Assembly: GCA_016699515.1 (NCBI GenBank)
Contig: CP064978.1
Location: 682,554-746,553 of the forward strand
Source: Candidatus Peregrinibacteria bacterium
GTDB taxonomy: Bacteria > Patescibacteriota > Gracilibacteria > UM-FILTER-43-11
Length of the DNA stretch: 64,000 nucleotides
Direction of reading: 5' to 3'
Below, piece after piece: positions 42,857 through 62,103 of the stretch. How positions within the stretch are numbered: the first letter of the stretch is position 1; the number at the start of each line of letters is the position of its first letter. Both the position numbers and the translations under genes were made by a program. Under the pieces are notes generated by a model. That model was not told where the DNA came from and searched no databases. It was given only the letters and a program-made list of their open reading frames with translations.

Positions 42857-43987
42857 TTAGCTGATGCCGTACATGCGGGCGAAGTCAGTGACAACGTCCT
42901 TCACTTTGACGGTAAGTTGACCTTGCAAGGTCTCCTTCAAAGTTCGGGAGTTGGCAGGTTCTGGTTCAAAGCGGAGCTTGTCATCCACGAACCATGTCTT
43001 GCCGAGCTTGCGGGTGTTCACGACGTACATTTCACCGAATGAATGGCGCAAGAACGGATCGGCCACGATTTTCAGCACGCCCACGCCTTCGCCTTCGTAC
43101 TGGTCAACCAGCACGCCAGCCATGCGTTCCTCTCGGGAGTAGCGCGTGTTTGACGCGTTGAATCCGTTGATCACGCTCTTGATGTCTGGGGAGCAGAGAA
43201 TGGTATCGGGGCTGCCGCCGCGTCTTGCCATTTCCAAGAGCACGTTTTTAAGGTGCGTTTCGGTGAAGGCGCCTGAGACGTTGTAGTTGAAGGCGTCGGA
43301 AGTGTTTTCGATGAAGTGCTTCAATCCGCCGAATGAACGCGGAGTGGTCTTGCTGCCAGCCGATGGCTTACCGAAGAGCACGGCTTGATTGAGCTTTTTC
43401 AATGCTCGCGTCATGGCTTTTGTGCGCTCATCGTTGAGCTTGTCGGTGACATCGAGATATTTTTGCTTTTGCGCGGTAAGCGTGATTTCGATCGGTTCTT
43501 CCACGATCTGGGTGAAGTTCAATTGCTCGATTGAATCCTCAAGCAAGCTGTCGCCGTTCACGGTTCCTTCCACATTCGCGTTGCCGAGAATGAAGATGGA
43601 AGCGGTGGCAAGGTGGGTAGCGGCGGAAGTTCCGCCGTGGCCGCGTCCGTACACGTCGATAGTGTTGCCCGTGCGATCCACGGTTTTCACGACGACGTAT
43701 TCGTCTTCAATGCGCAAAACATCGCCGACGTTTACGAGTTGGGCGAATTCAGCGCTTACAGGCAATCCCGTTGTAGCGGAATCGTCCCAGTCGCCAACGC
43801 CCACTTCGCCTTCCAGCGCGTAGGTCTTGGCGTCGTACCACTTGATTTTAGTTGTGTTGATCGGTTCGAACTCTGGGAATAAATCCAGAGAAGTGGTCAG
43901 CTTCGGATCGATCATGACCGCAATCCCTTTGACGAGTTCGTCGAGAAAAGGACTGTCATAGGTCGCGTATTTTCCTGCGATAATCAT
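42857..43987 (-). CDS. major capsid protein (putative)
   Basis: 376 aa, directly downstream of the scaffold gene and followed by a strong hairpin. No motif was read by eye. Confidence 0.55.
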   Translation of the reverse strand: MIIAGKYATYDSPFLDELVKGIAVMIDPKLTTSLDLFPEFEPINTTKIKWYDAKTYALEGEVGVGDWDDSATTGLPVSAEFAQLVNVGDVLRIEDEYVVVKTVDRTGNTIDVYGRGHGGTSAATHLATASIFILGNANVEGTVNGDSLLEDSIEQLNFTQIVEEPIEITLTAQKQKYLDVTDKLNDERTKAMTRALKKLNQAVLFGKPSAGSKTTPRSFGGLKHFIENTSDAFNYNVSGAFTETHLKNVLLEMARRGGSPDTILCSPDIKSVINGFNASNTRYSREERMAGVLVDQYEGEGVGVLKIVADPFLRHSFGEMYVVNTRKLGKTWFVDDKLRFEPEPANSRTLKETLQGQLTVKVKDVVTDFARMYGIS

Positions 43988-44013
43988 GTTATTGAAAGTT
44001 AAATATTAAGGCG

Positions 44014-44679
44014 TTATGTGGTCTGATTTTTCAGAGTCACGATTTCTTGCCCCAGCTTCATGATCTCTCTGCGTTCAGGCTCAGACAGGAATTCGCCCTT
44101 TTGGCGTTTCTGCATGAGTTCGTCGTAGCGCTGTTTCTTCGCTTCGACCTCGGAGAGGTTCTTGCTATTGGGCGGAATAGGAGCGCCTGTAGTGCTTTTC
44201 TCTCCCATGAGCAGCGCGCGGTTCTTGGCGATATATTTCAGTTTCGCCACCGTGGAAAGTTCATCGGGAATGAGAGCTTTCTTGTCATCGGGAATCTTTT
44301 CGAGTTCCTGAGCCAAGACTTCCTGTACCGTTTCTTCATACTGGGTCAGCTGCTCTTTGGTTTTGCCAGCGGACTCAAGTTCCTTGTCTTTCTCGGCGAG
44401 AATTTCCTTGTACTTGCCTTGTTCTTCGAGCTCTTTGCGCTTCCGTTTCTCCTCTTCCTTATCGCGCTTGTCGATCTCGTCCTTGTACTTATTTTTCTCG
44501 TCGATGACTTCGCGGAAACGGCTCATAGGAACCATTTGCTCCTGCTTTTTATCGTCTTCGCCTGACGGGGTCTTGTTAGCGTCCTGACCAGACGGTGAAG
44601 GTGTTTTATCGTCTTTGCCTTCGTTGTTGACGGGAGGAGTTTTTACGCCGTCCTCATTGGCGGGATTTTGAGTTGTCAT
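44014..44679 (-). CDS. scaffolding protein
   Basis: 221 aa. It has a K/E-rich coiled coil (EEEKRKRKELEEQGKYKEILAEKDKELE) and sits just upstream of the capsid gene. Confidence 0.6.
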   Translation of the reverse strand: MTTQNPANEDGVKTPPVNNEGKDDKTPSPSGQDANKTPSGEDDKKQEQMVPMSRFREVIDEKNKYKDEIDKRDKEEEKRKRKELEEQGKYKEILAEKDKELESAGKTKEQLTQYEETVQEVLAQELEKIPDDKKALIPDELSTVAKLKYIAKNRALLMGEKSTTGAPIPPNSKNLSEVEAKKQRYDELMQKRQKGEFLSEPERREIMKLGQEIVTLKNQTT

Positions 44680-44728
44680 AGCTGGGGTGATTAATAAACA
44701 TTTTTACGCCTTAGTGTTGGCGGTAACG

Positions 44729-44777
44729 AAAAAAGACCAGTTCGGTGTCCGCGACATGCGGGGACAAACTGGTCTTT
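44729..44777 (-). terminator. intrinsic terminator closing the cargo island
   Basis: On the minus strand, AAGACCAGTT pairs with AACTGGTCTT, with an inner GTCCGC/GCGGGAC stem. TTTTTT follows. Confidence 0.7.
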
Positions 44778-44848
44778 AAGACTATTTCTTACTAATCAAT
44801 TATACCAATTCGGTATGACAATGCAAGGGGTTTGGCTGTGGAAAAATA

Positions 44849-44995
44849 TCAGTTCAATTCCATAGCTTCATCGATATCAATATCACCGTTGGATACGAGC
44901 TCTTGCAGCTCATCGCTCAGCTCTTTGAAGTCCTCAATTTCCGAGGAATCCAATTCACCGTCGGCTACCATTTGTAAAATCTCTTCATCGTCCAT
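44849..44995 (-). CDS. 48-aa hyper-acidic protein (19 Asp/Glu, 1 Lys)
   Basis: Own codon-by-codon translation gives MDDEEILQMVADGELDSSEIEDFKELSDELQELVSNGDIDIDEAMELN. It is below the ORF-track size cut-off. Its ATG overlaps the end of the upstream nuclease gene by 11 nt. Confidence 0.5.
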   Translation of the reverse strand: MDDEEILQMVADGELDSSEIEDFKELSDELQELVSNGDIDIDEAMELN

Positions 44996-45746
44996 AGCTT
45001 TGTTGGTTAATGGCGTTCACGTATGCGCAGTAGTCACAATCTTCCGAAGCTTCGGGGATAATGTCGGCATTAAGGCAGTTATGGGCACCGATAACGGCTT
45101 TTTCTACCCAGCTATCATTGCCAGTGTAGGGAATAAGAGTTACATCGAATTCAAGCTTGCCATCGAAGGCTGCGCGATCCGCTTTGCCATTACAGTATAC
45201 AAAATAGCCCGTATCCGAAACCGTCAGCCCTCTTTTGCGGAGCAGCCATTGATACACTTCCATTTGGCGTTTATAGCCATCATGCCAGTCCTTGTTGAGC
45301 TCAGTGATCTCTTCGTCTTTGGCAGTGGCCTTATAATCCACGACAACGTATTCGCCCTTGGAGTTCTGCCAAAGGTCATCAATCGCGCCGTAAATGAGGA
45401 GATTCGTCGGTTCATGGATATACTGAATGCCAGTGAAGTTATGGCGCCACTTGGCCAAGTCTTCATGGGGGATCGGACGTGCGTCGACTCCGTATTTTTC
45501 TATCAGAGCGTGCTTCGTCCCATTAGTGCGGTGTGTGTCAAATTCTTTTTTGAGTAATGCATCGACCGCGCTGTTCAACGAGAACGGAAAACCAGGTGGG
45601 CGACCTACGCCGAGTTTGCGGTCAAAATAAAAACATCGAGGGCAACTCAAAAACAGATCGATCTTCGAGCGGCTGAGTTTAAATGGCTCAGTGTCTTTTG
45701 GATCGTACAGGTTTCTAGTGCGTTGTGGCGTGTAGTATTCTGACAT
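44985..45746 (-). CDS. Cas4-like PD-(D/E)XK nuclease with a Cys cluster
   Basis: The nuclease motifs are IYGAIDDL, YVVVDYKAT and RQMEVYQWLL. The cysteines lie in CPRCFY near the N-terminus and in C...CDYC near the C-terminus. GC is phage-like (48% in 45301-45360). Confidence 0.65.
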   Translation of the reverse strand: MSEYYTPQRTRNLYDPKDTEPFKLSRSKIDLFLSCPRCFYFDRKLGVGRPPGFPFSLNSAVDALLKKEFDTHRTNGTKHALIEKYGVDARPIPHEDLAKWRHNFTGIQYIHEPTNLLIYGAIDDLWQNSKGEYVVVDYKATAKDEEITELNKDWHDGYKRQMEVYQWLLRKRGLTVSDTGYFVYCNGKADRAAFDGKLEFDVTLIPYTGNDSWVEKAVIGAHNCLNADIIPEASEDCDYCAYVNAINQQSYGR

Positions 45747-45748
45747 AG

Positions 45749-48517
45749 TTATTTGAGGCTATATTTATTTTTTCTTCGTTCAAATGCTTCTTTGCCTCCC
45801 TCTAGAATCTTGCAAACACTAGCTATGATTTTTGGATTTTCTAGCGAACCAGAAGAGTAACTCAGTTTTTCTTCAGTGTTGTTTGCAATCACTACCTGCT
45901 CCGCATCTGCATTTACGACTAGATTAGCGTTGTGTGTAACGATTATAATTTGTCTGTACTTCTTGAGTTCTTTAAAGATGTCTATCAATTCGTTCATTAT
46001 GAATTCATTATCAAGATCATCTTCTGGTTGGTCAAAGATTATTGGCTTTGAGAAAGCATCTGTAGCCAACTTTAAGCAAAGGTAAACAGTTCCTCGCTGC
46101 CCAACAGAGAGCTGATCAAGCCTTTTCCCTCCATATGTGATTTTTGGAATCGTTTTGAGGTATTCGCCTCTATCTTTTAACCCAAAAAACACGTCGGCAA
46201 TTCCTACAAAACGTTCTGCGTTCTCTCCCTCAAGGTATTCTTTCAAAGAAGTGGCGATGAAATTAACCCAGTCTTCAAGTGAGTGAATCTTAAATTTTGC
46301 TATTAGAGCTTGTTTATCACGAAAGGTACGGCGATCAACCGTAGCAAGTAATTTGTTGTAGAACGCCTCTTCATCAAAGACTAATTCACCCTGAACGGCA
46401 ATTTTACCTTCTTTAAGAAGGATTTTTTCGATCAAAGTTTTATTTGCTGTCCCATGGTTATCAAGTATTCCTGACCACGCTCGATCAATCTCATTCTTTT
46501 GACGCTCATACTCTGACTTAATTTTCTCACCCAATCCCTCTCTTTCAGATAGCGTGGTTGTTAGTGAGGATTCTTGTTTAGCGATTGCTTCCAGCTGTTT
46601 TTCAGCCCACTGAATATTTGACTGGTAAGTCTTTGCGTTATCAAGCAGACTCGAAAGATCACCAGTAAAACCTTCCTGTTCAAACTCTGATTTAATTTTT
46701 TGATTTTCTTCTTCTTTTCCTTTCTTTTGCTCAAGAAGCTTCCACTTATTGTGAGCTATAGCCTCATTTTGCGTCTTAAAGTCTACCTGAGGAATTTTCT
46801 GGAAGCCCTTACTCTCATCAAGGGTTTTATTGTTTTCATCAATATTTTCGTTGAATGCGTTCTGTGTCTCAGTTAGCTCTTCAGAAAGATTATCTAGGGC
46901 GGTCACTTTTGATTCGAGAACCCGTATCTCATTAATGTTGGCCGTATATGTGGCGAGTTTTTTCTTGTTCTTCTCTGTGGTGATGCTTTTTAACAATTCT
47001 TCACTACGCTTCTTTTGAGATTCAACAAACGTTTTATCATTCAGCTTGCGCCCGTCTTCGTCTTCATATGCAAACCACGACTGCAAATCGTCAATATTTT
47101 TTAGGGTTTCTTGAATTTCTCGATCGAGCGACTGAGAAAAAAATAAGTCCTCGATCTTTAGAAGTTTTTTGACTTCGCCTGCAATAGCACCTTTCTCTGA
47201 AACCTCTTTTAAACGACGCTGAGGAATGTAAATGAAATCTAGATAATTTTCCTCTCCACCTTTATAATTTTCCGTGGTTGGATTGGGAAGATTGTCTTTG
47301 GCGTATAAAATTTCAAAATCTTCAGAATTTGAATAAGCAGAATCCGATGGCCGATGATTTTTAAAGAGGTGTGCCCAATAATCAACCATCATGCTCTTAC
47401 CCATGCCACGTCCACCGATAATGGATACCAAATTTTTATTTAAGGGTAGTTTGGTTTTAGAAAAGTAAACCTGATCCTTATCATTCTGAAAAATACCAAC
47501 CTCGTTATTGATATTCAGCTCTGAGAAGTATGGTCGATTGTACTCGTATGAAGGATTAGCTTCTTGAATTTTTACTCTTTCTGAAGGCTCGTAAAGTAAC
47601 TGCTTTAGACCATCAAAGGTTGGATCAGCTTTAATCCATGTAAATCTCTGGTTGTCTGGTTCAAATAGTTTGTCGTATGTATGACAATCTGATCCCCAAA
47701 CACAGGGCTTCAAGCTTTTAAATTCGTCTATGTATTGCTGAGGGCTCTCATGCTTCCTTCCTAGCCCCCATTCTATAGTTGCTGGATTCGAGCTGATTAG
47801 GGCATCAGATTTTTGGATGTAAACTTTTCTAACATTATGATCTTGTCCGTTCCATGAGATAGCACTTAAATCCTCATCGGAAGGGACACACATGAGATAC
47901 ATTCCTTCGAATTTTGATTTTTTGTTTGTCAGTATTTCTGCAATTTGAGAATGATTTACAACTGCACATTTCATCCCAACAAACAAATCAGAATCAGATT
48001 GAAATTCCGTGTGCTCTTGCTTTAGTTTTTTACCTAGCTCTTCTAGGTTTGATATTTTTAGCTTCCATTTCTCGTCAGTACCCTGAGGATTCCCTTCATA
48101 GATAAAATCTAAATCGTGGAGGAAATTTTCTTCAATATCCGTGATTGAAACGTCATCGGAAAAAATTACATGAAAATTTACCCGATTCCCGTTTACCAGA
48201 GTATCGAGGCGAAACTCTATGTTAGGGAAAAATGTGATTTTTTTGATTTGCTCGATTTCTTCTGCCGTAAATAATTCGGCAAGTTTCGTGTCATTGCCAA
48301 GATAGTCTTGCTTGATTTTTTTGTATCCTTCAATACAAAAATAGTCAGTGATTCCAACTACAGCAACTTGCTTTTCGATCGCTGCCTTGAATAGTTTTTT
48401 AACGTACTCTTCAAAATTGTCACCAAAACCATTATTCAAATGCGAAAAAGGGGTGTGAACCTGCAAGTCCCATTTTCTCCATTTTGATCCGCGCATGTTT
48501 TGGTCTATTTGACTCAT
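45749..48517 (-). CDS. PHP phosphoesterase domain fused to a Rad50/SbcC-like coiled-coil ABC ATPase
   Basis: The PHP ligand pattern is DLQVHT (aa 17-22), GITDYF, NIEFR, NFHVIF and GSDCHT (aa 275-280). Walker A is GGRGMGKS (aa 368-375). About 430 aa of heptad-rich sequence follow. Then come the signature LSVGQRG (aa 803), Walker B IIFDQPEDDLD and the H-loop VTHNANL. Confidence 0.7.
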   Translation of the reverse strand: MSQIDQNMRGSKWRKWDLQVHTPFSHLNNGFGDNFEEYVKKLFKAAIEKQVAVVGITDYFCIEGYKKIKQDYLGNDTKLAELFTAEEIEQIKKITFFPNIEFRLDTLVNGNRVNFHVIFSDDVSITDIEENFLHDLDFIYEGNPQGTDEKWKLKISNLEELGKKLKQEHTEFQSDSDLFVGMKCAVVNHSQIAEILTNKKSKFEGMYLMCVPSDEDLSAISWNGQDHNVRKVYIQKSDALISSNPATIEWGLGRKHESPQQYIDEFKSLKPCVWGSDCHTYDKLFEPDNQRFTWIKADPTFDGLKQLLYEPSERVKIQEANPSYEYNRPYFSELNINNEVGIFQNDKDQVYFSKTKLPLNKNLVSIIGGRGMGKSMMVDYWAHLFKNHRPSDSAYSNSEDFEILYAKDNLPNPTTENYKGGEENYLDFIYIPQRRLKEVSEKGAIAGEVKKLLKIEDLFFSQSLDREIQETLKNIDDLQSWFAYEDEDGRKLNDKTFVESQKKRSEELLKSITTEKNKKKLATYTANINEIRVLESKVTALDNLSEELTETQNAFNENIDENNKTLDESKGFQKIPQVDFKTQNEAIAHNKWKLLEQKKGKEEENQKIKSEFEQEGFTGDLSSLLDNAKTYQSNIQWAEKQLEAIAKQESSLTTTLSEREGLGEKIKSEYERQKNEIDRAWSGILDNHGTANKTLIEKILLKEGKIAVQGELVFDEEAFYNKLLATVDRRTFRDKQALIAKFKIHSLEDWVNFIATSLKEYLEGENAERFVGIADVFFGLKDRGEYLKTIPKITYGGKRLDQLSVGQRGTVYLCLKLATDAFSKPIIFDQPEDDLDNEFIMNELIDIFKELKKYRQIIIVTHNANLVVNADAEQVVIANNTEEKLSYSSGSLENPKIIASVCKILEGGKEAFERRKNKYSLK

Positions 48518-48580
48518 AAATTTCAGGGTTAAGTTAGTATTTCCGCACCCCTAGATTCGTGAGTGTGGTTATGTTATCCA

Positions 48581-49744
48581 TTAGCTTATAGAAAATATGT
48601 CATTAGGATCGCAATCTAGCTTCTTGCAGAGTTTTTCAAGCAAATCAAAGCTTATTGCTTGGGTTTTGTTATTCGCGATAGCCCAAAGCTGTTGGTAGCT
48701 GATGCCAGTATCTTTGTGTAGTTGGTGAAGGTTCTTTTGTTTACTCTTCAAGAGACTATTTAAGTTAATGGTGATATTTGAACTTTTTTGCTCACATTCA
48801 TTAAGCTGAAGGACGAGATGATTGAAAACATTCCACATCATGACTGGTGCAATTGCGTTTCCGATCTGCCTATAAGCATTGAGATCGGTTCCGATAAATT
48901 TAAAATCATCAGGGAAAGATTGTATTCTTGCTGCTTCTAGAGGGGTAAAGCGGCGATATGCATCTTTTCCCGTAGATAATACTGGATCAGTTCCATTCAA
49001 ACTTACTTTTGCCAAATGGGCATTGATCGTATTGCACGGCTCGTTAATATTTTGCGCACGCCCCTTGTTAAAAGCCTTATTAGCTTTTTTTAATCCCTCA
49101 ATTGCTCTTTTCGAGAAATGGTACTTAGGATCAACTTTTTCCTCATCCAATAAAACTTTTTTTAGCGGCACCCATTTTTTTACTGCTTTTGAAGGGAATC
49201 TATAAAATACATTAAAATCTTTTCTGATTCCTATAATAAAAACTCTCTCTCGCTTTTGTGGAACTCCATAATCTGCGGCATTCAGGATTTTATACACGAC
49301 GTTATATCCTGCATCTGAAAATGTCTCTAATATATGCTCCAAAACTTTACCGCCGTGAATATTGGTTAATCCTTTTACGTTTTCGCCGATAAAAGCTTTT
49401 GGTTGCTTATCGATAAGTATACGAGCCATTTCATTGAATAATTGCCCTCTTGGGTCACTCATGCCCTTCCTTTGACCTACGATACTGAATGTTTGGCAAG
49501 GAAAGCCGCCCATCAATACGTCATGGTCTGGAATCTCCGATGATGGAACTTCTAGGATGCTTTTGCAGGAGATATGATCTCCGAAATTAGCACGGTAGGT
49601 TTCCGTAGCTGCTTGATCAATGTCATTGGCATATACAATTTTTGTTGGATGTTTGTCAAACTTTTTTCCGAGAAACTTAAACCCACCAAGGGCACCTAGG
49701 TCGCTACCGCCACATCCTGCAAATAGTGAAGCTATAGTAATCAT
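48581..49744 (-). CDS. DNA (cytosine-5) methyltransferase with a C-terminal XRE-type HTH
   Basis: The motifs are I SLFAGCGG, IV GGFPCQTFS, VI ENVKGL, VIII QKRERVF, IX EAARIQSFPDDF and X GNAIAPV. The C-terminus, LHKDTGISYQQLWAIANNKTQAISFDLLEKLCKKLDC, is HTH-like. An ATGA overlap couples it to the upstream gene. Confidence 0.85.
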   Translation of the reverse strand: MITIASLFAGCGGSDLGALGGFKFLGKKFDKHPTKIVYANDIDQAATETYRANFGDHISCKSILEVPSSEIPDHDVLMGGFPCQTFSIVGQRKGMSDPRGQLFNEMARILIDKQPKAFIGENVKGLTNIHGGKVLEHILETFSDAGYNVVYKILNAADYGVPQKRERVFIIGIRKDFNVFYRFPSKAVKKWVPLKKVLLDEEKVDPKYHFSKRAIEGLKKANKAFNKGRAQNINEPCNTINAHLAKVSLNGTDPVLSTGKDAYRRFTPLEAARIQSFPDDFKFIGTDLNAYRQIGNAIAPVMMWNVFNHLVLQLNECEQKSSNITINLNSLLKSKQKNLHQLHKDTGISYQQLWAIANNKTQAISFDLLEKLCKKLDCDPNDIFSIS

Positions 49745-51162
49745 TTTTGCCAAATTAATAATTCGGAACGTTCTCCGCATTGATCGGAGAATACAATGTC
49801 TGCACCGTTACGCGGTGACATTTTCATAAGTTTTTGTCTGTACTTATCTACTGGGTCTTGGATGATAAACAGATCTCTGCCTTCTTTTGAAATAACGAGA
49901 CGGTAAATGAAGTATCTTTCTCCAAAGCTCTCTGCAGCGCTCCATTCATTTGGAGTTAAATGAACATTGTAAAAGTTTAATTTTTTGCTACTGATTGTGC
50001 TTTTAACTTCAATGCAACGCGTTCGTTCGTCAAATTCAACTGATTGAATATCAAATCCCATTGCAAAATGATTTGGGATTTTTTTGATCAACCTTATCAA
50101 GTCCTCACGTCCACCGACCTTCAATCTCATGCTTTCGTGACCAACAATAAGGTTTTCACCTAAGTCCCCGATATTCTTTGTTCGCGAATCTCCTCTTTCG
50201 ATGTCCTCATGCAAACTCGCGATAGCACCTTGAACCAAGGTTTCATAAGTCTCTTCTTTAATGCCAAGATATTTAAGAACATCGGTTTTAAAGAGATCGC
50301 TTCCCAAATCTCTATTTACAAAATGAAACCACTCATCTTGCAATGCCGAGATATCTTCAGATTTCAGCGAAGGATCGCCATAAAACTTGTCATAAAGAGA
50401 AAATCTTTCCGTAGAAGTAAGAAACTTTGTAATTGCTTCACGCTCACCCCAATTAATAACATAATTATTACCTCTTATTTCAAGAAGGTTTGCCAGCACC
50501 ATGTAATCAAGAATGTCCCCAGCATATCTGACAACATCGCCACTCCAATCATACTGGGTATTTGTTTTTCTGTTATCTGTAATTAATTTTAATGCTTCTG
50601 ATGCTCCCAACTGCCCTGTGGTAAATCTAAGGTCATTAAAAATACAGTGGGTTAGTTCGGCCTTGGTCAAATAAAATCTTTTTTCTCCACCATCAGTTGC
50701 TAATGCTTTTTCGCCGATTTCCAATAATTTTAAAATAAATTGGACTGGCTTAAATTTTATCCCAGCATTAATGCACTTCACTGATTCATGTGGTTTTAGA
50801 TGCCCACCAGGATATTGGAAACGAAATAAAAAATACTTAAAAAACTCAACCAAATCTTGATTTTCAGCTAACTTAAAAGCAATGTGTCCAGTTTTGTATT
50901 GGTCACCATCAGTCTCTACCAAGCCAAACAGGGAAGAAATTTCTGTTCGCCAGTTCTTTATTGTTTTTTCTTCTTTGGTGGCATTTTCTGGAAAGAGTCT
51001 TATCACACCATCGAACTTTGCGATAAATTCCTTCTTCTCGGCAGGTTTCATCTTACTGAGTTCAGTAGCCATGAAAATCAAAACCTCCTCGACATTGTTT
51101 TTGAATCGAGGCCTAATATGGTGTAGACGAAAATAAAATTGTTCGGGTGTTTGATATTTCAT
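49741..51162 (-). CDS. DUF3883-type (PD-(D/E)XK-like) putative restriction endonuclease
   Basis: The C-terminal block, GDLGENLIVGHE...GFDIQSV...CIEVKST...LTPNEWSAAESFGERYFIYRL, matches the DUF3883 pattern as I recall it. The N-terminal 330 aa or so are unassigned. The gene is sandwiched between two m5C MTases. Confidence 0.55.
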   Translation of the reverse strand: MKYQTPEQFYFRLHHIRPRFKNNVEEVLIFMATELSKMKPAEKKEFIAKFDGVIRLFPENATKEEKTIKNWRTEISSLFGLVETDGDQYKTGHIAFKLAENQDLVEFFKYFLFRFQYPGGHLKPHESVKCINAGIKFKPVQFILKLLEIGEKALATDGGEKRFYLTKAELTHCIFNDLRFTTGQLGASEALKLITDNRKTNTQYDWSGDVVRYAGDILDYMVLANLLEIRGNNYVINWGEREAITKFLTSTERFSLYDKFYGDPSLKSEDISALQDEWFHFVNRDLGSDLFKTDVLKYLGIKEETYETLVQGAIASLHEDIERGDSRTKNIGDLGENLIVGHESMRLKVGGREDLIRLIKKIPNHFAMGFDIQSVEFDERTRCIEVKSTISSKKLNFYNVHLTPNEWSAAESFGERYFIYRLVISKEGRDLFIIQDPVDKYRQKLMKMSPRNGADIVFSDQCGERSELLIWQK

Positions 51163-51163
51163 G

Positions 51164-52228
51164 TTATTGGTTTAAAAAAACGGACAGCTGTTTTGCCAGT
51201 ATTTCACCAAGCAGAGGGGGAACAGCATTGCCGACCTGCTTTGCTTGTCCTGTCGACGTTCCGTGAAAAATAAAACTATCTGGAAATGACTGGATTCTGG
51301 CTGCTTCTCTGGGCGTAGGTATACGATTGTATTTGTAATGAAAATGATGTCGGTGTCCAGTATCTATCGTAAAGCTGGGCTTTGCACTATTCAATCTAGT
51401 CCACGCAATATTTACTTTTCGCGTATCTCTTAAATTCTCGGGTAAATTTTTATAATTTCCACCATCTGGAACGAGTGAAATTATCTTAACAGTTTGATCA
51501 CTGTGCTTGCATGTCTGATGGTTATACAAGCCATCACTTTCAGCTCGCATCAAGCGTTGATATTCAGATGTTGGGTTTGTATTATATTTTGATCCGTCAA
51601 CGACTGAGCCTTCTGGTAGATCAGAGATAGCATCATTAGCGGTGATTTTACTTTTCAAATTTTCTCCAAAAATAGGTTTGGGAAATTCAAAAGTTTTACC
51701 ATTCAATAGACCTATAAATACAACTCTTTTCCTGTTTTGCGGCACTCCATAATCCGAGGCCAGTAAAACTTTATAGGAAACTGTATAGCCGAGAGATGTA
51801 AAATCTTCTAAAATCTTTTCTTTTATTTTACCGCCTCCCATTGCAATTAAATTCGGGACATTCTCCATTAAAAATGCTTTTGGTTTAAAATATGAAACAA
51901 AATTAACAAACCCTTTGTATAGAAAATTTCTGGGATCTTCCGTTAGACGCTTTCCAGATATTGAAAAACCTTGGCATGGGGGGCCACCTATAATGACATC
52001 AACATTTTTTACTTTGTATTGATTTGCAATTTCTTGGGGTGTGGTCTTGCTCAAATCGCCCAAGTGAGTCTCGGCTCCATTATGATTAGCTTTGAAAGTT
52101 TTGAGAGACTGTTCCCAATTATCAATACCAAGTAAAACTTGATAACCAGCTTTTTCAAATCCAAAAGAAAGACCGCCGCAGCCGCAAAATAAATCGATTA
52201 TTGTAGGTTTTTTTGATGTCTTGACCAT
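51164..52228 (-). CDS. DNA (cytosine-5) methyltransferase
   Basis: The motifs are I DLFCGCGG, IV GGPPCQGFS, VI ENVPNL, VIII QNRKRVVF, IX EAARIQSFPDSF and X GNAVPP. ATG 52228 is preferred over the tracked GTG 52249. Confidence 0.85.
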   Translation of the reverse strand: MVKTSKKPTIIDLFCGCGGLSFGFEKAGYQVLLGIDNWEQSLKTFKANHNGAETHLGDLSKTTPQEIANQYKVKNVDVIIGGPPCQGFSISGKRLTEDPRNFLYKGFVNFVSYFKPKAFLMENVPNLIAMGGGKIKEKILEDFTSLGYTVSYKVLLASDYGVPQNRKRVVFIGLLNGKTFEFPKPIFGENLKSKITANDAISDLPEGSVVDGSKYNTNPTSEYQRLMRAESDGLYNHQTCKHSDQTVKIISLVPDGGNYKNLPENLRDTRKVNIAWTRLNSAKPSFTIDTGHRHHFHYKYNRIPTPREAARIQSFPDSFIFHGTSTGQAKQVGNAVPPLLGEILAKQLSVFLNQ

Positions 52229-52235
52229 GGGATTG

Positions 52236-52286
52236 ATTATAAAGTCCACTTGATAATAATTATACGGTTTTAAAAAATAAATTCAA
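52236..52286 (-). promoter_or_regulatory. sigma70-like promoter elements upstream of the island
   Basis: On the minus strand, TTGAAT (52281-52286) is followed by 16 nt and then TATAAT (52259-52264). A second TATAAT lies at 52236-52241, 8 nt before ATG 52228, so a leaderless start is possible. Confidence 0.4.
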
Positions 52287-52316
52287 CCCTTTAACCTGTG
52301 GATAGAAAGCCCCTGA

Positions 52317-53087
52317 TCAATCCTCGATATATGGCATGTAACTATGTCTACAATTCGGATGAATCGGCAATTCGGGTGCTTTATCGTACCCATTACTCTT
52401 CCCAGTCAGACTATAGACCTTGCCTTCATAGGGCTGGCAAATTGGACAGGCAGTAGCGTGCGTTGATATTTCGACCAGATCAACGTTGTTGGAAAGCAGA
52501 CGGTTTTTTGTGCCTTCGCCATTGGCTTTTATCACATGCGTGCGCACGAGCATTTCGGCATAGCTATCGATACTCCATCTTTTTCCGCCACGATCAACAA
52601 GTGCCGTAAAGCCAGTGTCTTCGATGAGTCCTTTTACCTCACGCTTCACGTTTGCTAACGCTTCACCCTGAAGTTGCCCCGAGACGATTTGCTCATTGAT
52701 CTTCTTTTTCACAATCTCACTCACAAACCCTCGACCAGCACGCCGCACGCCTTCAATACCAGCAGCAAAATCAAGATAAGCGTCTTCGGTTAATGCTTGA
52801 ATGGCTTCTTTGTGCACTTGCCCAAAACCCATCTTGTCGAACGTAAGTCCGAGCTTGCCAGCGTCATCTACGGCTTGTTGACTGCCTTTCTTGTATTCCT
52901 GTGGAATCTCGATCACCAGCCAGTTCTTCGTTTCGCGCTCAAGATCGGCAGCGATCTTGTTGATGTCTCCCATAATAACTTTTCGAATCAGGATGATCGG
53001 CTGTCTCGGGGCGGCTCTTTTGACCGTTGTTGCCAACCGTTTCGTTGCTCGGCGGTAAATGTTGATGAGTTTTGTTTCGTTGGCCAT
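52317..53087 (-). CDS. head morphogenesis protein (SPP1 gp7 / Mu F family)
   Basis: The start was trimmed to MANETKLINIY. The C-terminal motif CPICQPYEGKVY...PIHPNCRHSYMPY is typical of the family. Confidence 0.75.
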   Translation of the reverse strand: MANETKLINIYRRATKRLATTVKRAAPRQPIILIRKVIMGDINKIAADLERETKNWLVIEIPQEYKKGSQQAVDDAGKLGLTFDKMGFGQVHKEAIQALTEDAYLDFAAGIEGVRRAGRGFVSEIVKKKINEQIVSGQLQGEALANVKREVKGLIEDTGFTALVDRGGKRWSIDSYAEMLVRTHVIKANGEGTKNRLLSNNVDLVEISTHATACPICQPYEGKVYSLTGKSNGYDKAPELPIHPNCRHSYMPYIED

Positions 53088-53089
53088 AG

Positions 53090-53281
53090 TTAAAAAATTA
53101 GGAATGCAAACCTTACTGTCACAATCATCGTGAAAACAAAAACGAGCAGAAGGAGGTGGAAGACCAGAGCAACTTTCACATACCGCTGCCAATTGCGGTC
53201 GATATTTTCCAGCCGTTTTTGCAGCACTTCCTCTGAGGTCAGGTGCTTTTGGTAAGGATTAGGATAGGTGTTGTAGCTCAT
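53090..53281 (-). CDS. small membrane protein (hypothetical)
   Basis: 63 aa. The C-terminal TM segment is VALVFHLLLLVFVFTMIVTV. Confidence 0.4.
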   Translation of the reverse strand: MSYNTYPNPYQKHLTSEEVLQKRLENIDRNWQRYVKVALVFHLLLLVFVFTMIVTVRFAFLIF

Positions 53282-53292
53282 ACGGTATCGGG

Positions 53293-54709
53293 TTAAAGGC
53301 TAATTTCAGGCACTTGTTTACGCGCCTGATCCATTTGATAGTTCGACATTTCATCCTGCTTCGCGATCTTGTCGAGTTCGTTTTGCAATGTCTCGCCCTC
53401 AAGCCCCTTGAGCTCACGGATTGCCGTTTCTTTGCTCTCCATTCCGCTTTCAACCATGATTTGGTGAGTCTGTGCTTCGGAAAACAAATCACGCGGCAAT
53501 CCCAAATCCCATACGAAGGAAATATCCACGTTGTCTGGGAATTTTTTCGCGCCTTCAAAGAAGAGTGCGGTCTTCAAAATATCAATCAGTTTTGCCTCGT
53601 AGCTTCGTTGTTTGCGCTTGATCTTCTTGAGAAACGCGGCCATGCGCAGTTTCGCCGTTTCTACCTTTTCCACTCCGCCTTTGTCTTCCAGTCCCAAGAA
53701 TGACACAGGCGTTTGAGTAACCGTGCAGATTTGTCTAATAAGACCTTCGATCTGCTTGAATCCTTCCTCGATCAGTGGATTCGAATTGGTGATGTACTGC
53801 GGAACGATGTCGCCCTTTTCAACGAGGAAGATATCTTGTGTGCTATCCATTTCGCCCTTCTTGCTTAGCACGCCTTCGCCAACTGCTACTTTTGAATTCA
53901 GGTGCTTGATGAGCTGCACGGATATTTGCGTGATGCGATCGTTTATTTCCTCGAACAAATTCATCACGCTTTCGTAAGCGGAAATGCCAAAGCGTTCCTT
54001 TACCGTCTTGAAATTGTCGATCTGGAAAATCGGTATGTAATCCAGCTCCGTATCTTCCTCGGCTGGCAAGTCAGCACTGAATAGTGCGAGCTCGGTCAGC
54101 TGCGATTGCTTCATGTCGGGCGTGGTCGTCCAGAGTTCGTGGACGATCTTGCCTTTGTTGTTTTCTAGCTTGTGAATCTGTTTGTAGAGGAAGGTTTCTT
54201 TCTTTTGGTTCTTCGGATTCACGAGGTCGATGTAAGAAGCGATTACGATCTGCCGTGGTTCTTCGCCAAGACGCACACCCGTGAAGTCTGGGTAGTAGTT
54301 GTCGTACGGTATTTCTTCGATAATGGCCGTCTTATCCTTTTGCCGCACGGCGATAACCGCGAAGCCTGCCACGTCCTGCATGACGGCGCTTTGGTAAAGC
54401 TTTTCGTCGAGGTAATTGTTCTGAATGATGGCGTTGATTTTTCTTTTCCGTCGGCTTTTGTTCTTCGGATTCGTTGGTCTGAATTTTCAATTGCTCGCCG
54501 AACAGAAAGTCGGCCGCCGTCAACGAGATGATCTGGCCGACGTTGTATGCGAGATAGAGCAGTGTTTTCTTTTTGGTATCTTCCTCGAAATAACTCTTGA
54601 GTTTGAAGACCTTGCTATGAAGTCCTTTGAACACGTTGTAGTAATTATTCAGTTTTGCCACGCGATTAAAGTCTTCGTTGGTCGGAAATTGTGTTGAGAT
54701 GTCGCTCAT
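53293..54709 (-). CDS. portal protein, frameshift at a T5/A5 run (54438-54442)
   Basis: ORFs 54332..54709 and 53293..54381 join as ...KPTEKKINAIIQNNYLDEKLYQSAVMQDVAGFAV if the A5 run is A4. The gene sits between TerL and MuF, and the combined length is about 470 aa. Confidence 0.75.
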
Positions 54710-57772: not shown

Positions 57773-57817
57773 AAAAAAAGACCATGCGACGCCCGATTTT
57801 TCGGGCAGATGGTCTTT
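57773..57817 (-). terminator. intrinsic terminator between the early/replication and packaging modules
   Basis: On the minus strand, AAAGACCAT pairs with ATGGTCTTT, with an inner GCCCG/CGGGC stem. A T7 run follows. Confidence 0.7.
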
Positions 57818-57857
57818 AAGACTTGGGTTGCGATATTTGCTTGATTATAGGCCGAGC

Positions 57858-58061
57858 CTACGAGCTTTCAAGCAATTCGGGCAGTTCCTCAAAGAGGGAC
57901 TTTGACGTGACAGTTACGACTTTAAACTCTCCGTTCTCAAACTTATAATACCAAAATTTCTTATTTCGGTCTTTGATTTCAATAAGCGGAGCCCCTTCTT
58001 TTACGAGGTATTTGAAGAGGATGTAGTTGCCGCGTGCCGTTTTGATAGGGATATTTTCCAT
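57858..58061 (-). CDS. hypothetical protein
   Basis: 67-aa ORF with no recognised motif. Confidence 0.35.
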   Translation of the reverse strand: MENIPIKTARGNYILFKYLVKEGAPLIEIKDRNKKFWYYKFENGEFKVVTVTSKSLFEELPELLESS

Positions 58062-59983: not shown

Positions 59984-61114
59984 TTAAATAATTAATTTTT
60001 CGATGATATATTCCACTACGGAAACGGTGACTGCGTTTCCCAGTGTTTTGTATCTCTGTGCATTTGAGATTTTAATTTTCACTCCGTTTTCTCCAATTCC
60101 GAATTCCGTCCACCCGTCAGGGAATGACTGAAGTCTCTCGCACTCAAGAGGAGTGAGACGACGAATGCTGTGTCCAGTAACGCCCAGTTCGGGAACGCGT
60201 CCGCTTCTTAAACAGCCTCTATTGTCGCGTCCGTCTCGTAAAATAAGTTCTTTCACCATCGGTTCATGCCCGTGACTTTGGGCTTTTAGCGTCAGACTAA
60301 TATCCATTTCGACTGGTGACTTATTTTTATGACCGTAATGAGCCAGTATTTTGGGTTGTCTCATGCCACCCTGCATTGTATTGAGAGTCGGGGAAATTCC
60401 TTCAGAGCTGTAAACGCGGTCGTTTGAATGTTTTGGATTGTTGATCTGATTAATTCCATGACGATCCTGTGACGTAAGCGTAAACGCAACATCTCCATCA
60501 TTTTTGAAACGCCTGCCATGTTGTCTTTTTTTGATTCTGTCTGGCGTTAAAACTGGCACTACGCCTGTTTGAGCAATTCGACCGTTTGCTCGCGCGAGAG
60601 GAAATATTTTTCGTCTGGGGAGTCTTCCAAAATATCCAATAATGAACACTCTTTCCCGATTCTGTGGGACTCCGAAATTTTTGCTGTTAAGAACCTGCCA
60701 CTCGAAGCTATACCCCAGCTCTGCAATCGCTTTGGTGACAGTCGCAAAAGTTTTTCCGTTGTCGTGAGAAAGCAATCCTTTAACATTTTCAAACAAGAAG
60801 CATCGAGGCTGTTTGATTCGCAAAATTCTCGCAAGGTCAAAAAATAACCCACCTCTGGCATCGGAAAATCCACCGCGTTTTCCAGCGATTGAAAAAGCCT
60901 GACAAGGGAATCCTCCGACAAGGAGGTCGAAGTCTGGCAGTTCGCTCGGATTGATTTTAGTGATGTCTCCATAATTTGGGTTATTAAATTTTAACTTGTA
61001 AATCTGCTCCGCAAACCTATCAATTTCAGAGTGCCCGACGACTTCAATTCCGTTTATCTGAAGCGCGAGATCGAATCCGCCAATGCCCGAAAATGTAGAG
61101 AAAGCTTTCATCAT
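59984..61114 (-). CDS. DNA (cytosine-5) methyltransferase (orphan, early region)
   Basis: The start was trimmed to MMKAFSTFSGIGGFD. The motifs are GGFPCQAFS, ENVKGL, QNRERVFIIG, CERLQSFPDGW and GNAVTV. The longer tracked form (to 61402) overlaps the upstream gene. Confidence 0.85.
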   Translation of the reverse strand: MMKAFSTFSGIGGFDLALQINGIEVVGHSEIDRFAEQIYKLKFNNPNYGDITKINPSELPDFDLLVGGFPCQAFSIAGKRGGFSDARGGLFFDLARILRIKQPRCFLFENVKGLLSHDNGKTFATVTKAIAELGYSFEWQVLNSKNFGVPQNRERVFIIGYFGRLPRRKIFPLARANGRIAQTGVVPVLTPDRIKKRQHGRRFKNDGDVAFTLTSQDRHGINQINNPKHSNDRVYSSEGISPTLNTMQGGMRQPKILAHYGHKNKSPVEMDISLTLKAQSHGHEPMVKELILRDGRDNRGCLRSGRVPELGVTGHSIRRLTPLECERLQSFPDGWTEFGIGENGVKIKISNAQRYKTLGNAVTVSVVEYIIEKLII

Positions 61115-61124
61115 GTGTTCGGTG

Positions 61125-62084: not shown

Positions 62085-62103
62085 CGTTAAGATTGGTAAA
62101 AAA

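What the first reader, a model, noticed from the sequence alone, without database searches (positions are those of the whole stretch)
44849..52290. AT-rich six-gene nuclease/methylase/ATPase cassette interrupting the phage head-gene operon
Siphovirus late operons normally run portal, MuF, scaffold and capsid without a break. Here about 7.5 kb sits between MuF (52317-53087) and the scaffold gene (44014-44679). It carries six co-oriented ORFs packed like one operon:
- m5C MTase 51164-52228, then a 1-nt gap
- DUF3883 nuclease 49741-51162, joined by an ATGA overlap
- m5C MTase with HTH 48581-49744, then 63 nt
- PHP/Rad50-like ATPase 45749-48517, then 2 nt
- Cas4-like nuclease 44985-45746, joined by an 11-nt overlap
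- 48-aa acidic ORF 44849-44995

Promoter-like -35/-10 hexamers precede the block at 52236-52286, and an intrinsic terminator follows it at 44729-44777. That is the classic moron layout.

Hand-counted GC in 60-nt samples is 38% and 25% inside 45749-52250. It is 50% and 50% in the flanking head genes. The step at 45747 is sharp, because the Cas4-like gene counts 48%.

All six ORFs are intact, although I traced about 25 frame disruptions elsewhere in the window. That could be chance, or it could reflect selection.

The gene content (self-marking methylases plus three predicted nucleases and an SMC-like ATPase) looks like a phage-borne defence or superinfection-exclusion system. I cannot match the overall architecture to a described system.
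Basis: partly seen in the sequence, partly recalled or inferred. Interest (0 to 1): 0.86.

Follow-up and report, generated by a model that had tools for sequence, protein, structure and literature searches.

The report
Swappable defence-gene slot in CPR prophage
The AT-rich block is not one six-gene machine: it is separately exchangeable anti-virus modules (a BpuJI-type restriction-modification system, a Ppl-like nuclease-ATPase and a small nuclease/acidic-peptide pair) in a cargo slot between two late-gene units of a prophage in a tiny-genome Peregrinibacteria bacterium, so it is a new example of a known phenomenon.

Summary
Six intact co-oriented ORFs sit between MuF and the scaffold gene, and GC drops to 0.36-0.41 over 45750-52250 against 0.45-0.53 in the flanks.

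The block is modular, not one system:
- 48581-52249 is a BpuJI-family type IIS restriction-modification triad (m5C MTase, REase, m5C MTase). The same triad occurs in unrelated bacteria.
- 45749-48517 is a full-length "TrlF family" protein, a PHP phosphoesterase fused to an SMC/Rad50-like ATPase. It is a relative of the Ppl defence protein but not Ppl itself.
- 44849-45746 is a PD-(D/E)XK nuclease plus a 48-aa acidic peptide, with backbone-like GC.

Related phages keep the flanks and swap the cargo. They carry type I or type III-like R-M, CBASS+PARIS, PDC-S06 or even metal-resistance genes.

In 80 metagenomic loci, TrlF homologues preferentially lie directly downstream of R-M genes. PD-(D/E)XK homologues always follow defence-like cargo.

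The "moron terminator" belongs to the phage backbone. It is a conserved promoter-hairpin-U-tract leader, and a second copy lies at 57773-57823.

The host is a Candidatus Peregrinibacteria (CPR) genome.

Verdict: a prophage defence hotspot, a new variant of a known kind. Interest 0.55.

The parts
52259..52286 (-). Sigma-70-like promoter candidate (TTGAAT-16-TATAAT) in front of the R-M cassette
   Evidence: Best-scoring site in 44000-53500. It lies in the 68 nt between the MuF stop and M1. The overall count of such sites is not above chance, and function is inferred.
51164..52249 (-). M1, C5-cytosine DNA methyltransferase (likely start 52228)
   Evidence: Pfam DNA_methylase 3.8e-77. PADLOC MTase_II 5e-121. 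TIGR00675 222 bits.
49741..51162 (-). BpuJI-family type IIS restriction endonuclease: BpuJI_N recognition domain plus NOV_C/DUF3883 PD-(D/E)XK catalytic domain
   Evidence: Pfam BpuJI_N 5.3e-95 full length and NOV_C 2e-11. PADLOC REase_II 6e-32. PDB 2vla R.BpuJI 3e-19. More than 2000 homologues. The M-R-M triad is conserved in L033, L036 and L037.
48581..49780 (-). M2, C5-cytosine DNA methyltransferase with C-terminal Cro/C1 HTH (likely start 49744, ATGA overlap with R)
   Evidence: DNA_methylase 1.5e-80 plus HTH_26 1.8e-12 at residues 339-397. Translation. In L033/L037 the corresponding M2 is about 320 aa without an HTH.
45749..48517 (-). TrlF-family protein: N-terminal PHP-like phosphoesterase, then SMC/Rad50-like ABC ATPase split by a long coiled coil
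   Evidence: NCBIfam NF045780 565 bits against a cutoff of 350, positions 1-943/944. The Ppl model scores only 111 bits against a cutoff of 1000. PADLOC Ppl 4e-25, best-scoring stretch at the C terminus. PHP and Walker/signature motifs are invariant. AF2 pLDDT 87; Foldseek finds SMC, RecN, JetC and Rad50 heads. It is 92.5% identical to the protein at the same site in L001.
44985..45746 (-). PD-(D/E)XK (RecB/Cas4-like) nuclease with CxxC...CxxC cysteines; GC matches the phage backbone
   Evidence: Pfam PDDEXK_1 2.3e-15. The Cas4 model scores 32.6 bits, below its cutoff of 65. phrog_31195, unknown function. D124, D137-x-K139, Q161..Y165 and C35/C38/C237/C240 are invariant. Present in L001, L029, L031 and L023-L028.
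44849..44995 (-). 48-aa strongly acidic ORF (19 D/E, 1 K/R), overlapping the nuclease gene by 11 nt
   Evidence: Weak SHOCT-like hit. Conserved after the nuclease in L001, L029 and L031. A similar 51-aa acidic ORF follows the nuclease in L026 and L028.
44729..44826 (-). Backbone leader A: TTGCAT-16-TGgTATAAT (44826-44799), invariant AGTCTTAAAGACC box (44783-44771), hairpin + U-tract (44777-44729), 50 nt before the scaffold ATG
   Evidence: Conserved in 8 relatives whatever the cargo, including L030 and L005, which lack the nuclease pair. The fold is z -4.4. Variant inner stems all fold with z -4.2 to -5.3.
57773..57870 (-). Leader B: second copy of the same element (TTGAAA-17-TATAAT, AGTCTTAAAGACC box, hairpin with a different inner stem, U-tract), just before the ParB-MTase/terS/TerL unit
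   Evidence: Regex hit in the window, fold, position at the replication/packaging boundary. Not part of the block, but it defines what leader A is.
52317..53087 (-). MuF-like minor head protein: conserved left flank of the slot
   Evidence: Phage_min_cap2 5e-23 and phrog_4611 2e-41. Homology with L001 and L030 stops at 52321, right at its stop codon.
44014..44679 (-). Putative scaffold protein: conserved right flank, first gene of late unit 2 (followed by the SU10-type MCP at 42857-43987)
   Evidence: 77-97% identical in L001, L004-L007 and L029-L032. MCP Pfam SU10_MCP 7.5e-40.

Best explanation
The block is composite accessory cargo sitting in a lineage-specific hotspot of a siphovirus-type prophage in a Candidatus Peregrinibacteria (CPR) chromosome. 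The hotspot lies between the end of late unit 1 (ParB-MTase, terS, TerL, portal, MuF) and the promoter/leader of late unit 2 (scaffold, capsid, tail).

Module 1 (48581-52249) is a BpuJI-family type IIS restriction-modification system. By inference from BpuJI, the two m5C methyltransferases each mark one strand of an asymmetric site, and the BpuJI-like enzyme cuts unmarked incoming DNA. The specificity is unknown. The HTH fused to M2 may regulate the cassette.

Module 2 (45749-48517) is a TrlF-family PHP-nuclease/SMC-like ATPase, a relative of Ppl. I infer that it acts on DNA ends or 3'-OH termini, as reported for Ppl. I also infer that it serves as a second layer finishing or backing up restriction, because TrlF genes are preferentially the last gene of R-M operons of several types.

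Module 3 (44849-45746) is a phage-backbone-like PD-(D/E)XK nuclease with an acidic partner. It marks the 3' edge of defence cargo in a wider group of phages, and its role is unknown.

Shown here: gene identities, modular exchange, the hotspot, the R-M-to-TrlF linkage, the conserved leaders and the host. Inferred: expression in the lysogen, the enzymology, the synergy and the antitermination-type control of the leaders.
For: Identities.

The BpuJI gene order (R flanked by two m5C MTase genes) is stated in PMC1874659. The same order occurs in three unrelated bacterial contexts.

Modular exchange:
- Homology between the window and L001 breaks exactly at the MuF stop (52321) and the TrlF start (48518). 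A type I-like R-M fills the gap in L001.
- TrlF shows the same divergence as backbone genes: 82% nt and 92.5% aa, against 77-93% nt for the backbone.

Hotspot: ten further relatives carry different cargo between the same flanks:
- type I R-M with an embedded CBASS cyclase (1.5e-175) and a PARIS AriAB fusion (4.6e-120)
- a type III-like REase plus a TPR/PIN protein
- PDC-S06 (1e-123)
- a Ppl-like ATPase
- type III-like R-M plus DUF2130
- multicopper oxidase, ArsR and a cation-efflux protein
All these cargos are AT-rich relative to their backbones.

R-M-to-TrlF linkage:
- In L158 TrlF sits between hsdS and hsdR. In L160 it starts 18 nt after a Res gene.
- In 80 metagenomic loci, 13 of 40 have an R-M gene within 3 kb upstream on the same strand, against 2 of 33 downstream (p = 0.008). 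Eight have gaps of 31 nt or less.

TrlF anatomy. Ppl mechanism: PMC12904381. Leaders. Host.
Against: - No experimental data exist for TrlF, and no paper on it was found.
- The PHP assignment rests on conserved His/Asp motifs and sub-threshold Pfam hits (window E = 0.075). The first His of the HxH motif is Gln here, as in 8 of 28 family members.
- Many TrlF genes stand alone, for example on IncF plasmids and in L002, L003 and L159. Coupling to R-M is therefore not obligatory.
- My R-M panel has limited sensitivity, and its only control is the upstream/downstream contrast.
- The prophage has frameshifts in the portal gene and the tape-measure region, so it may be defective, or the assembly may be error-prone.
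- CCCGT is not avoided in the window (85 observed, 84.8 expected). The recognition domain is only about 30% identical to BpuJI, so the target site is unknown.
- Promoter use in the lysogen is untested.
Confidence: 0.7

Rival explanations
1. One integrated six-gene defence or superinfection-exclusion system of new architecture, whose methylases, three nucleases and ATPase work together.
For: The genes are tightly packed and co-oriented, with 1-nt, 2-nt and overlapping junctions. There is one promoter-like site upstream and one terminator downstream. All six are intact while neighbouring genes carry frameshifts.
Against: - L001 replaces only the R-M triad and keeps the other three genes.
- L029 and L031 keep only the nuclease and acidic ORF behind other cargo. 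L030 and L005 have neither.
- The M-R-M triad stands alone in bacteria.
- TrlF homologues never have a PD-(D/E)XK homologue nearby in 80 loci.
- GC steps from 0.38 to 0.48 inside the block.
- The terminator is a backbone element.
Confidence: 0.07
2. Mainly a selfish addiction cassette. The R-M triad (and perhaps a nuclease/acidic-antitoxin-like pair) persists because its loss kills the cell. This would stabilise a decaying prophage rather than defend the host.
For: - Type II R-M systems are known post-segregational killers (established knowledge).
- The cargo is intact while the portal and tape-measure regions are frameshifted.
- The triad is highly mobile across phyla and sits next to integrase/transposase or resolvase genes in L033, L034 and L037.
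- The nuclease gene overlaps a tiny acidic ORF, a toxin/antidote-like layout.
Against: - The frameshifts sit at homopolymers and are as dense in essential host genes such as clpC. They look like assembly errors rather than decay.
- The slot in relatives holds many non-addictive defence systems and even metal-resistance genes.
- Addiction and defence are not mutually exclusive.
Confidence: 0.13
3. A phage-offensive or counter-defence module used in the lytic cycle. The methylases would protect progeny DNA from host or rival R-M systems, the nucleases would degrade host or competitor DNA, and the acidic peptide would act as a DNA mimic against restriction enzymes.
For: - The block is co-oriented with late unit 1 and lies downstream of it, so late transcripts could read into it.
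- The phage carries further orphan MTases, the ParB-MTase at 56504-57760 and an m5C MTase at 59984-61402.
- The 48-aa ORF has 19 acidic residues.
- The PD-(D/E)XK pair has phage-backbone GC.
Against: - The cassette contains a complete REase with two cognate-type MTases, the standard self/non-self layout.
- The cargo in relatives is made of classical host-protecting systems such as CBASS, PARIS and type I R-M.
- The phage already has a recombination exonuclease in its replication module.
For the nuclease/acidic pair alone this reading remains open, at about 0.3.
Confidence: 0.1
4. Assembly chimera: the AT-rich segment was mis-joined into the prophage.
For: There is a sharp composition change. 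The assembly has many homopolymer frameshifts.
Against: - Independent metagenomes show the same flanks with TrlF, the nuclease and the acidic ORF at the same place (L001, L029, L031).
- The junctions fall exactly at gene boundaries.
- All relatives have AT-rich cargo at this site.
Confidence: 0.02

Closest known systems
BpuJI restriction-modification system of Bacillus pumilus (type IIS, site CCCGT; Sukackaite et al. 2007, PMC1874659)
   Same: Same gene order, with the REase flanked by two C5-cytosine MTase genes. The REase has the same two-domain build: a BpuJI_N recognition domain and an AHJR/NOV_C-type PD-(D/E)XK catalytic domain.
   Different: The recognition domain is only about 30% identical to BpuJI, so the target site is probably different, and CCCGT is not depleted here. 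M2 carries an extra C-terminal Cro/C1 HTH that is absent from relatives. The system is carried by a prophage of a CPR bacterium.
Ppl single-gene anti-phage protein (PHP exonuclease + NTPase; Gao et al. 2020 from my own knowledge; mechanism summarised in PMC12904381)
   Same: Same overall build and length: an N-terminal PHP-type phosphoesterase and an ABC/SMC-like ATPase with a coiled-coil insertion. It gives significant but partial hits to the Ppl models.
   Different: It fails the NCBIfam Ppl cutoff by far (111 against 1000 bits) and belongs to the sister family TrlF (565 against 350 bits). No experimental data exist for TrlF. Here and in about a third of the loci sampled it follows an R-M system instead of standing alone.
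Defence hotspots of temperate phages and satellites (P2/P4 hotspots, Rousset et al. 2022; from my own knowledge, the title phrase occurs in papers listed)
   Same: Conserved flanking core genes, with hypervariable AT-rich cargo dominated by defence systems that are swapped between close relatives.
   Different: The phage group is different (SU10-type capsid, SPP1-type portal, CPR hosts). The position is different, between MuF and the scaffold gene at the junction of two late units. The 3' edge is nested, with an optional PD-(D/E)XK/acidic pair, and one relative carries metal-resistance cargo.
R-M-linked second-line defence genes such as PrrC in the EcoprrI locus and RloC (Rad50-like ATPase with coiled coil) next to type I/III R-M (from my own knowledge)
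   Same: An ATPase-nuclease gene is embedded in or appended to R-M operons of different types. TrlF sits between hsdS and hsdR in L158.
   Different: PrrC and RloC are anticodon nucleases acting on tRNA. TrlF has a PHP domain and no anticodon-nuclease domain. No evidence here shows that TrlF is held in check by the R-M enzyme.
Lambda PR'-tR' late promoter/terminator with Q antitermination (from my own knowledge)
   Same: A consensus-like promoter is followed within about 20 nt by a strong intrinsic terminator directly upstream of late genes. The element is present at both late units.
   Different: No Q-like or other late regulator was identified. The element carries an invariant AGUCUUAAAGACC box. 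It could instead be a small RNA or a 5' stabiliser.

Membership tests
BpuJI-family type IIS R-M system | REase with a BpuJI N-terminal recognition domain | tested here: met
   Pfam BpuJI_N 5.3e-95 covering 1-278/278. PDB 2vla/5hlt 3e-19.
BpuJI-family type IIS R-M system | C-terminal AHJR-like PD-(D/E)XK catalytic domain | tested here: met
   NOV_C/DUF3883 2e-11 at residues 366-430. The PADLOC REase_II model covers 1-450.
BpuJI-family type IIS R-M system | Two C5-cytosine MTase genes flanking the REase gene, one per strand of an asymmetric site | tested here: met
   M1 and M2 flank R with a 1-nt gap and an ATGA overlap. The order is stated for BpuJI in PMC1874659. The same triad occurs in L033, L036 and L037. 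Strand-specific methylation itself was not tested.
BpuJI-family type IIS R-M system | Recognition of an asymmetric site with cleavage nearby (CCCGT for BpuJI) | not testable with these tools
   About 30% identity in the recognition domain. CCCGT shows no depletion. Needs a methylome and a cleavage assay.
Ppl anti-phage protein | Score above the curated Ppl family threshold | tested here: not met
   NF042955 Ppl_antiphage 111 bits against a cutoff of 1000. The best-scoring of two matched stretches covers only residues 798-916, the C-terminal ATPase lobe. PADLOC Ppl 4e-25, best stretch 802-916.
Ppl anti-phage protein | PHP phosphoesterase domain with metal-binding His/Asp motifs | tested here: inconclusive
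   H21, D58, E101, H116, D277 and H279 are invariant in 28 homologues. The first His of HxH is Gln in the window and in 7 others. Pfam PHP is sub-threshold: 0.075 in the window, 1.5e-5 to 6e-3 in relatives. No PHP hit in PDB by sequence.
Ppl anti-phage protein | ABC/SMC-type NTPase with coiled-coil insertion | tested here: met
   Walker A GGRGxGKS, signature LSxGQ, Walker B DQPEDDLD and the H-loop are invariant. The AF2 model has long helices at 462-701. Foldseek finds SMC, RecN, JetC and Rad50 heads at 7e-10 to 1e-6.
TrlF family AAA-like ATPase (NCBIfam NF045780) | Full-length match above the curated cutoff | tested here: met
   565.3 bits against a cutoff of 350. Residues 9-919 match model positions 1-943/944. 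Homologues are annotated TrlF in RefSeq plasmids.
Cas4 | Score above the Cas4 family threshold, and CRISPR-cas context | tested here: not met
   TIGR00372 32.6 bits against a cutoff of 65. No cas genes or repeats are nearby. It is a generic PDDEXK_1 member (2.3e-15) with a 2+2 cysteine pattern.
Moron (self-contained transcription unit inside a late operon) | Own promoter and own terminator, with composition different from the phage | tested here: inconclusive
   Composition is met for 45749-52250 only. A promoter-like site is present, but such sites are not enriched. The terminator is a conserved backbone element shared by relatives with other cargo or none of these genes.
Phage defence hotspot | Conserved flanking core genes with different, mostly defence-type cargo in close relatives | tested here: met
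   The MuF flank ends at 52321 in L001 and L030. The scaffold/leader flank is shared by L001, L005, L006 and L029-L032. The cargos are listed, and the homology breakpoints.
Lambda-type late promoter + leader terminator (antitermination control) | Promoter followed by an intrinsic terminator upstream of late genes, plus a cognate antiterminator | tested here: inconclusive
   Two copies have this architecture, at 44729-44826 and 57773-57870. No antiterminator or late activator was recognised among neighbouring ORFs.

The most novel reading that the evidence does not exclude
TrlF-family PHP/SMC-like proteins would be a widespread, uncharacterised 'second stage' of restriction. They would be appended to type I, II and III R-M operons and would load on the ends or nicks those enzymes make, or sense their inhibition, to destroy invading DNA.

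In this CPR-phage lineage such modules would be shuffled through a dedicated slot whose 3' edge is marked by a PD-(D/E)XK nuclease/acidic-peptide pair that itself helps cargo exchange or guards the cargo. Prophages would then be a main supplier of layered immunity to CRISPR-poor CPR bacteria.
Probability: 0.25. Interest if true: 0.75.

Novelty: new variant of a known kind. Interest (0 to 1): 0.55.

Why it matters
CPR/Patescibacteria have tiny genomes and few recognised defences, and very little is known about their phages.

This locus and its relatives show a prophage lineage that carries a swappable slot. The slot delivers R-M, CBASS, PARIS, Ppl-like and other systems, and in one relative metal-resistance genes, to these hosts.

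Two testable leads come out of the comparison:
- TrlF, a large protein family that NCBI names but nobody has characterised, and that is common on enterobacterial conjugative plasmids, is preferentially the terminal gene of R-M operons. This suggests a functional partnership with restriction.
- A conserved PD-(D/E)XK/acidic-peptide pair marks the edge of defence cargo in several phage groups.

The R-M system itself is ordinary.

Tried and rejected
- Nucleotide search of 40-57 kb against isolated phage genomes: no match. The PD-(D/E)XK protein also has no hit in isolated phages or in PDB.
- Rfam and tRNA scans of the whole window: nothing found, so the leader is not a known RNA family.
- Alternative genetic code 25 as the cause of the 'frame disruptions': rejected. 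TGA is a normal stop, and recoding does not merge the split ORFs checked. The disruptions are true frame changes at homopolymers.
- Exact look-up of the window's own TrlF and REase on other contigs: not on record.
- Literature on 'TrlF': only unrelated uses of the string. The origin of the name remains unknown to me.
- CCCGT avoidance as a clue to specificity: none.
- Operator-like inverted repeat near the M1 promoter for the M2 HTH: none.
- RNAalifold on the eight leader copies gave a weak consensus because the variants misalign. Folding each variant separately was informative.
- The 14-mer scan of viral contigs returned mostly chance hits. Only loci with the full hairpin were kept.
- A TCCACAG box about 10 nt upstream of the -35 occurs both after MuF and in leader A. 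It is too short to interpret.

Full report
**1. The observation**

The six ORFs exist as described, all on the - strand. The tool lists longer alternative starts for M1 (52249) and M2 (49780).

GC is 0.36-0.41 from about 45750 to 52250 and 0.45-0.53 on both sides. The last two ORFs (44849-45746) have flank-like GC of 0.44-0.48.

A TTGAAT-16-TATAAT site at 52286-52259 is the best promoter-like match in the region. Such sites are not more frequent than in shuffles, 25 against 20.8. The hairpin plus U-tract at 44777-44729 is strong, at -26.6 kcal/mol with z = -4.4.

**2. What the genes are**

- M1 and M2 are C5-cytosine MTases (1e-77 and 1e-80). M2 has a C-terminal Cro/C1 HTH.
- The gene between them is a BpuJI-family enzyme rather than a generic DUF3883 nuclease. 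It matches BpuJI_N at 5e-95 over the full profile and NOV_C at 2e-11, and it hits the BpuJI crystal structure sequence at 3e-19 with about 30% identity.
- The BpuJI paper states that bpuJIR is flanked by two m5C MTase genes (PMC1874659).
- The same M-R-M triad surrounds homologues with 54-76% identity in unrelated bacterial contexts, including Aliarcobacter butzleri.
- This part is therefore a new member of a described type IIS R-M kind. Its site is unknown, and CCCGT is not depleted.

The 922-aa protein matches NCBIfam 'TrlF family AAA-like ATPase' end to end, with 565 bits against a cutoff of 350. It reaches only 111 of the 1000 bits needed for Ppl.
- An alignment of 28 homologues shows invariant PHP-type His/Asp residues. 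The first His of HxH is Gln in this subgroup.
- The alignment also shows invariant Walker A, signature, Walker B and H-loop motifs.
- Pfam PHP hits are sub-threshold but consistent at the N terminus across the family.
- The AlphaFold model (pLDDT 87) has an SMC/Rad50-type head split by a long coiled coil. Foldseek finds SMC, RecN, JetC, MukB and Rad50 heads.
- According to PMC12904381, Ppl is a 3'-5' ssDNA exonuclease that senses 3'-OH ends and NTP depletion.

The fifth protein is a PDDEXK_1 nuclease (2e-15). It is below the Cas4 cutoff. The D..D-x-K, QxxxY and CxxC...CxxC motifs are invariant. The 48-aa ORF has 19 acidic residues and 1 basic residue.

**3. Context**

- The left 27 kb of the window is bacterial. 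ClpC is 68-78% identical to proteins that, wherever named, come from Candidatus Peregrinibacteria.
- The window's ClpC and REase are both recorded with a longest contig of 1,338,661 bp.
- An endolysin gene at 27365-28090 marks the left end of the prophage. The region from 58 to 64 kb is a replication module.
- Related capsid genes lie in Peregrinibacteria and Uhrbacteria MAG contigs.

**4. Relatives decide the interpretation**

L001 is a 49-kb metagenomic contig about 83% identical in nucleotides. It aligns with the window up to 52321 (the MuF stop) and again from 48518 (the TrlF start). In between it carries DUF5655, an HTH protein, a type I-like REase and an MTase/specificity fusion.

TrlF there is 92.5% identical in protein and 82% in DNA, the same divergence as the backbone genes. 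It was therefore already present in the common ancestor, despite its 38% GC.

Other relatives keep the MuF and/or scaffold flanks with other cargo:

| Locus | Cargo in the slot |
|---|---|
| L031 | type I R-M with an embedded CBASS cyclase and a PARIS AriAB fusion, then the nuclease/acidic pair |
| L029 | a Ppl-like ATPase, then the pair |
| L030 | DUF5655, a type III-like REase/helicase and a TPR/PIN giant protein; no pair |
| L032 | PDC-S06 |
| L006 | type III-like R-M plus DUF2130 |
| L005 | multicopper oxidase, ArsR and a cation-efflux protein |

All these cargos are AT-rich relative to their backbones. This is a hotspot with nested right-hand breakpoints at the TrlF start, the nuclease start, 44844 and 44783.

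**5. Two associations go beyond this lineage**

(a) TrlF follows R-M genes.
- In L158 TrlF lies between hsdS and hsdR. In L160 it starts 18 nt after a Res gene.
- I scanned 80 metagenomic TrlF loci with a panel of R-M proteins. Of 40 loci with enough sequence, 13 have an R-M gene within 3 kb upstream on the same strand. Only 2 of 33 have one downstream (Fisher p = 0.008). Eight have gaps of 31 nt or less.
- The R-M types include HsdM/S/R, beta-class MTases with Res-like helicases, and m5C MTases.
- Many TrlF genes are nevertheless solitary, for example on IncF plasmids.

(b) The PD-(D/E)XK gene follows defence cargo.
- Homologues with 58-77% identity in six other viral contigs always sit directly 3' of defence-like genes. 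These are a Ppl-like PHP-ATPase, type I R-M plus SMODS/SLATT, type III-like R-M, a multi-MTase/DUF3883 set, an SNF2 helicase and HerA.
- In two of the six a similar small acidic ORF follows.
- No PD-(D/E)XK homologue is near any of the 80 TrlF loci.

**6. The terminator**

An alignment of the region upstream of the scaffold gene in eight relatives shows four conserved parts: a TTGCA-N16/17-TGnTAnnAT promoter-like site, an invariant AGTCTTAAAGACC box, a hairpin whose inner stem varies but always folds, and a U-tract. These are present whether or not the nuclease pair or any particular cargo is there.

A second copy, with another inner stem, lies at 57823-57773. This is between the replication module and the ParB-MTase/terS/TerL genes.

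The element is therefore a backbone regulatory leader of the two late units. It resembles a promoter-plus-leader-terminator arrangement under antitermination control, but no regulator was identified. It probably also stops transcripts leaving the cargo.

**7. Mechanism (inferred)**

- In the lysogen the R-M marks self DNA and cuts incoming DNA.
- TrlF, by analogy with Ppl and from its R-M linkage, processes DNA ends or backs up restriction.
- The nuclease/acidic pair has an unknown role. Candidates are a toxin-antidote pair, an anti-restriction function or recombination at the slot.

**8. Frame disruptions**

They are real and all lie next to homopolymer runs.
- Six were found in about 8 kb of host coding sequence compared with a related genome: one each in clpC, a SpoU methylase gene and a DZR_2 gene, and three in an SBP gene.
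- About four were found in the phage backbone.

The block has as many homopolymer runs per kb as the host, 4.2 against 3.9, and no shift. About 3-6 would be expected. If the shifts are assembly errors this says nothing about selection.

**9. Verdict**

The interpretation as a defence-type insertion is supported. The idea of a single novel six-gene architecture is not. The locus is a new variant of a known kind, a prophage defence hotspot. It has two new and testable associations and an unusual CPR host.

Noticed in passing
window 57773-57870 (-) and 44729-44826 (-): Two copies of a promoter-like site followed by an invariant AGTCTTAAAGACC box, a hairpin with a different inner stem, and a U-tract. 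One lies before ParB-MTase/terS/TerL and one before scaffold/MCP. The element is conserved in relatives (L001, L005, L006, L029-L032, L084). It is a candidate late-operon leader (antitermination type) or a short RNA of about 55-60 nt. No Rfam match.
   Followed up: partly
window 1-27000: The host part is a Candidatus Peregrinibacteria (CPR) chromosome. ClpC at 1924-4398 is 68-78% identical to Peregrinibacteria proteins, and its recorded longest contig is 1,338,661 bp. The standard genetic code applies.
   Followed up: yes
window ~1879, ~5830, ~11500, ~24050, ~24160, ~24490, 38583, 38926, 54438: Frameshifts relative to related genomes split clpC, a SpoU methylase gene, a DZR_2 gene, an SBP_bac_5 gene (three times), the tape-measure/chaperone region and the portal gene. 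All lie next to homopolymer runs, which looks like indel error of the assembly or slippage mutation.
   Followed up: partly
window outside 44849-52316: CCAGG/CCTGG (33 observed, 84 expected) and GGACC/GGTCC (25 observed, 63 expected) are the most depleted 5-mers. This suggests past or present exposure to CCWGG- and GGWCC-specific restriction systems.
   Followed up: no
window 56504-57760, 59984-61402, 61125-62243 (all -): The prophage carries further DNA-modification and nuclease genes outside the block. These are a ParB-domain N6/N4 MTase (phrog_498), a 472-aa m5C MTase, and a phrog_69/1218 exonuclease that overlaps the m5C MTase ORF in the ORF list.
   Followed up: partly
L005 1-2830: In one close relative the same slot holds a multicopper oxidase, an ArsR regulator and a cation-efflux protein instead of defence genes. 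The slot therefore accepts non-defence cargo.
   Followed up: partly
L031 1-8233; L026 2256-9996: In L031 a CBASS-type cyclase plus a PARIS AriAB fusion are embedded inside a type I R-M operon, upstream of the PD-(D/E)XK gene. In L026 SMODS and SLATT_4 genes follow the type I R-M genes in the same position.
   Followed up: partly
PLSDB plasmids, e.g. NC_014382.1 46426-49107 (L241): TrlF-family genes (about 29% identity) occur on 1148 plasmid records, mostly conjugative Escherichia and Klebsiella plasmids. On pEC_B24 the gene is solitary, next to the colicin B/M genes.
   Followed up: partly
window 52290-52310 (-) and 44832-44845 (-): A TCCACAG box lies about 10 nt upstream of the -35 hexamer, both after the MuF stop and in leader A. 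It could be a remnant of a duplicated promoter region or chance.
   Followed up: no
L001 3340-4350 and L030 166-1179: L001 and L030 share the sequence just after the MuF stop and both begin their cargo with a DUF5655 gene. The rest of the cargo differs, so exchange also happens inside the cargo.
   Followed up: no
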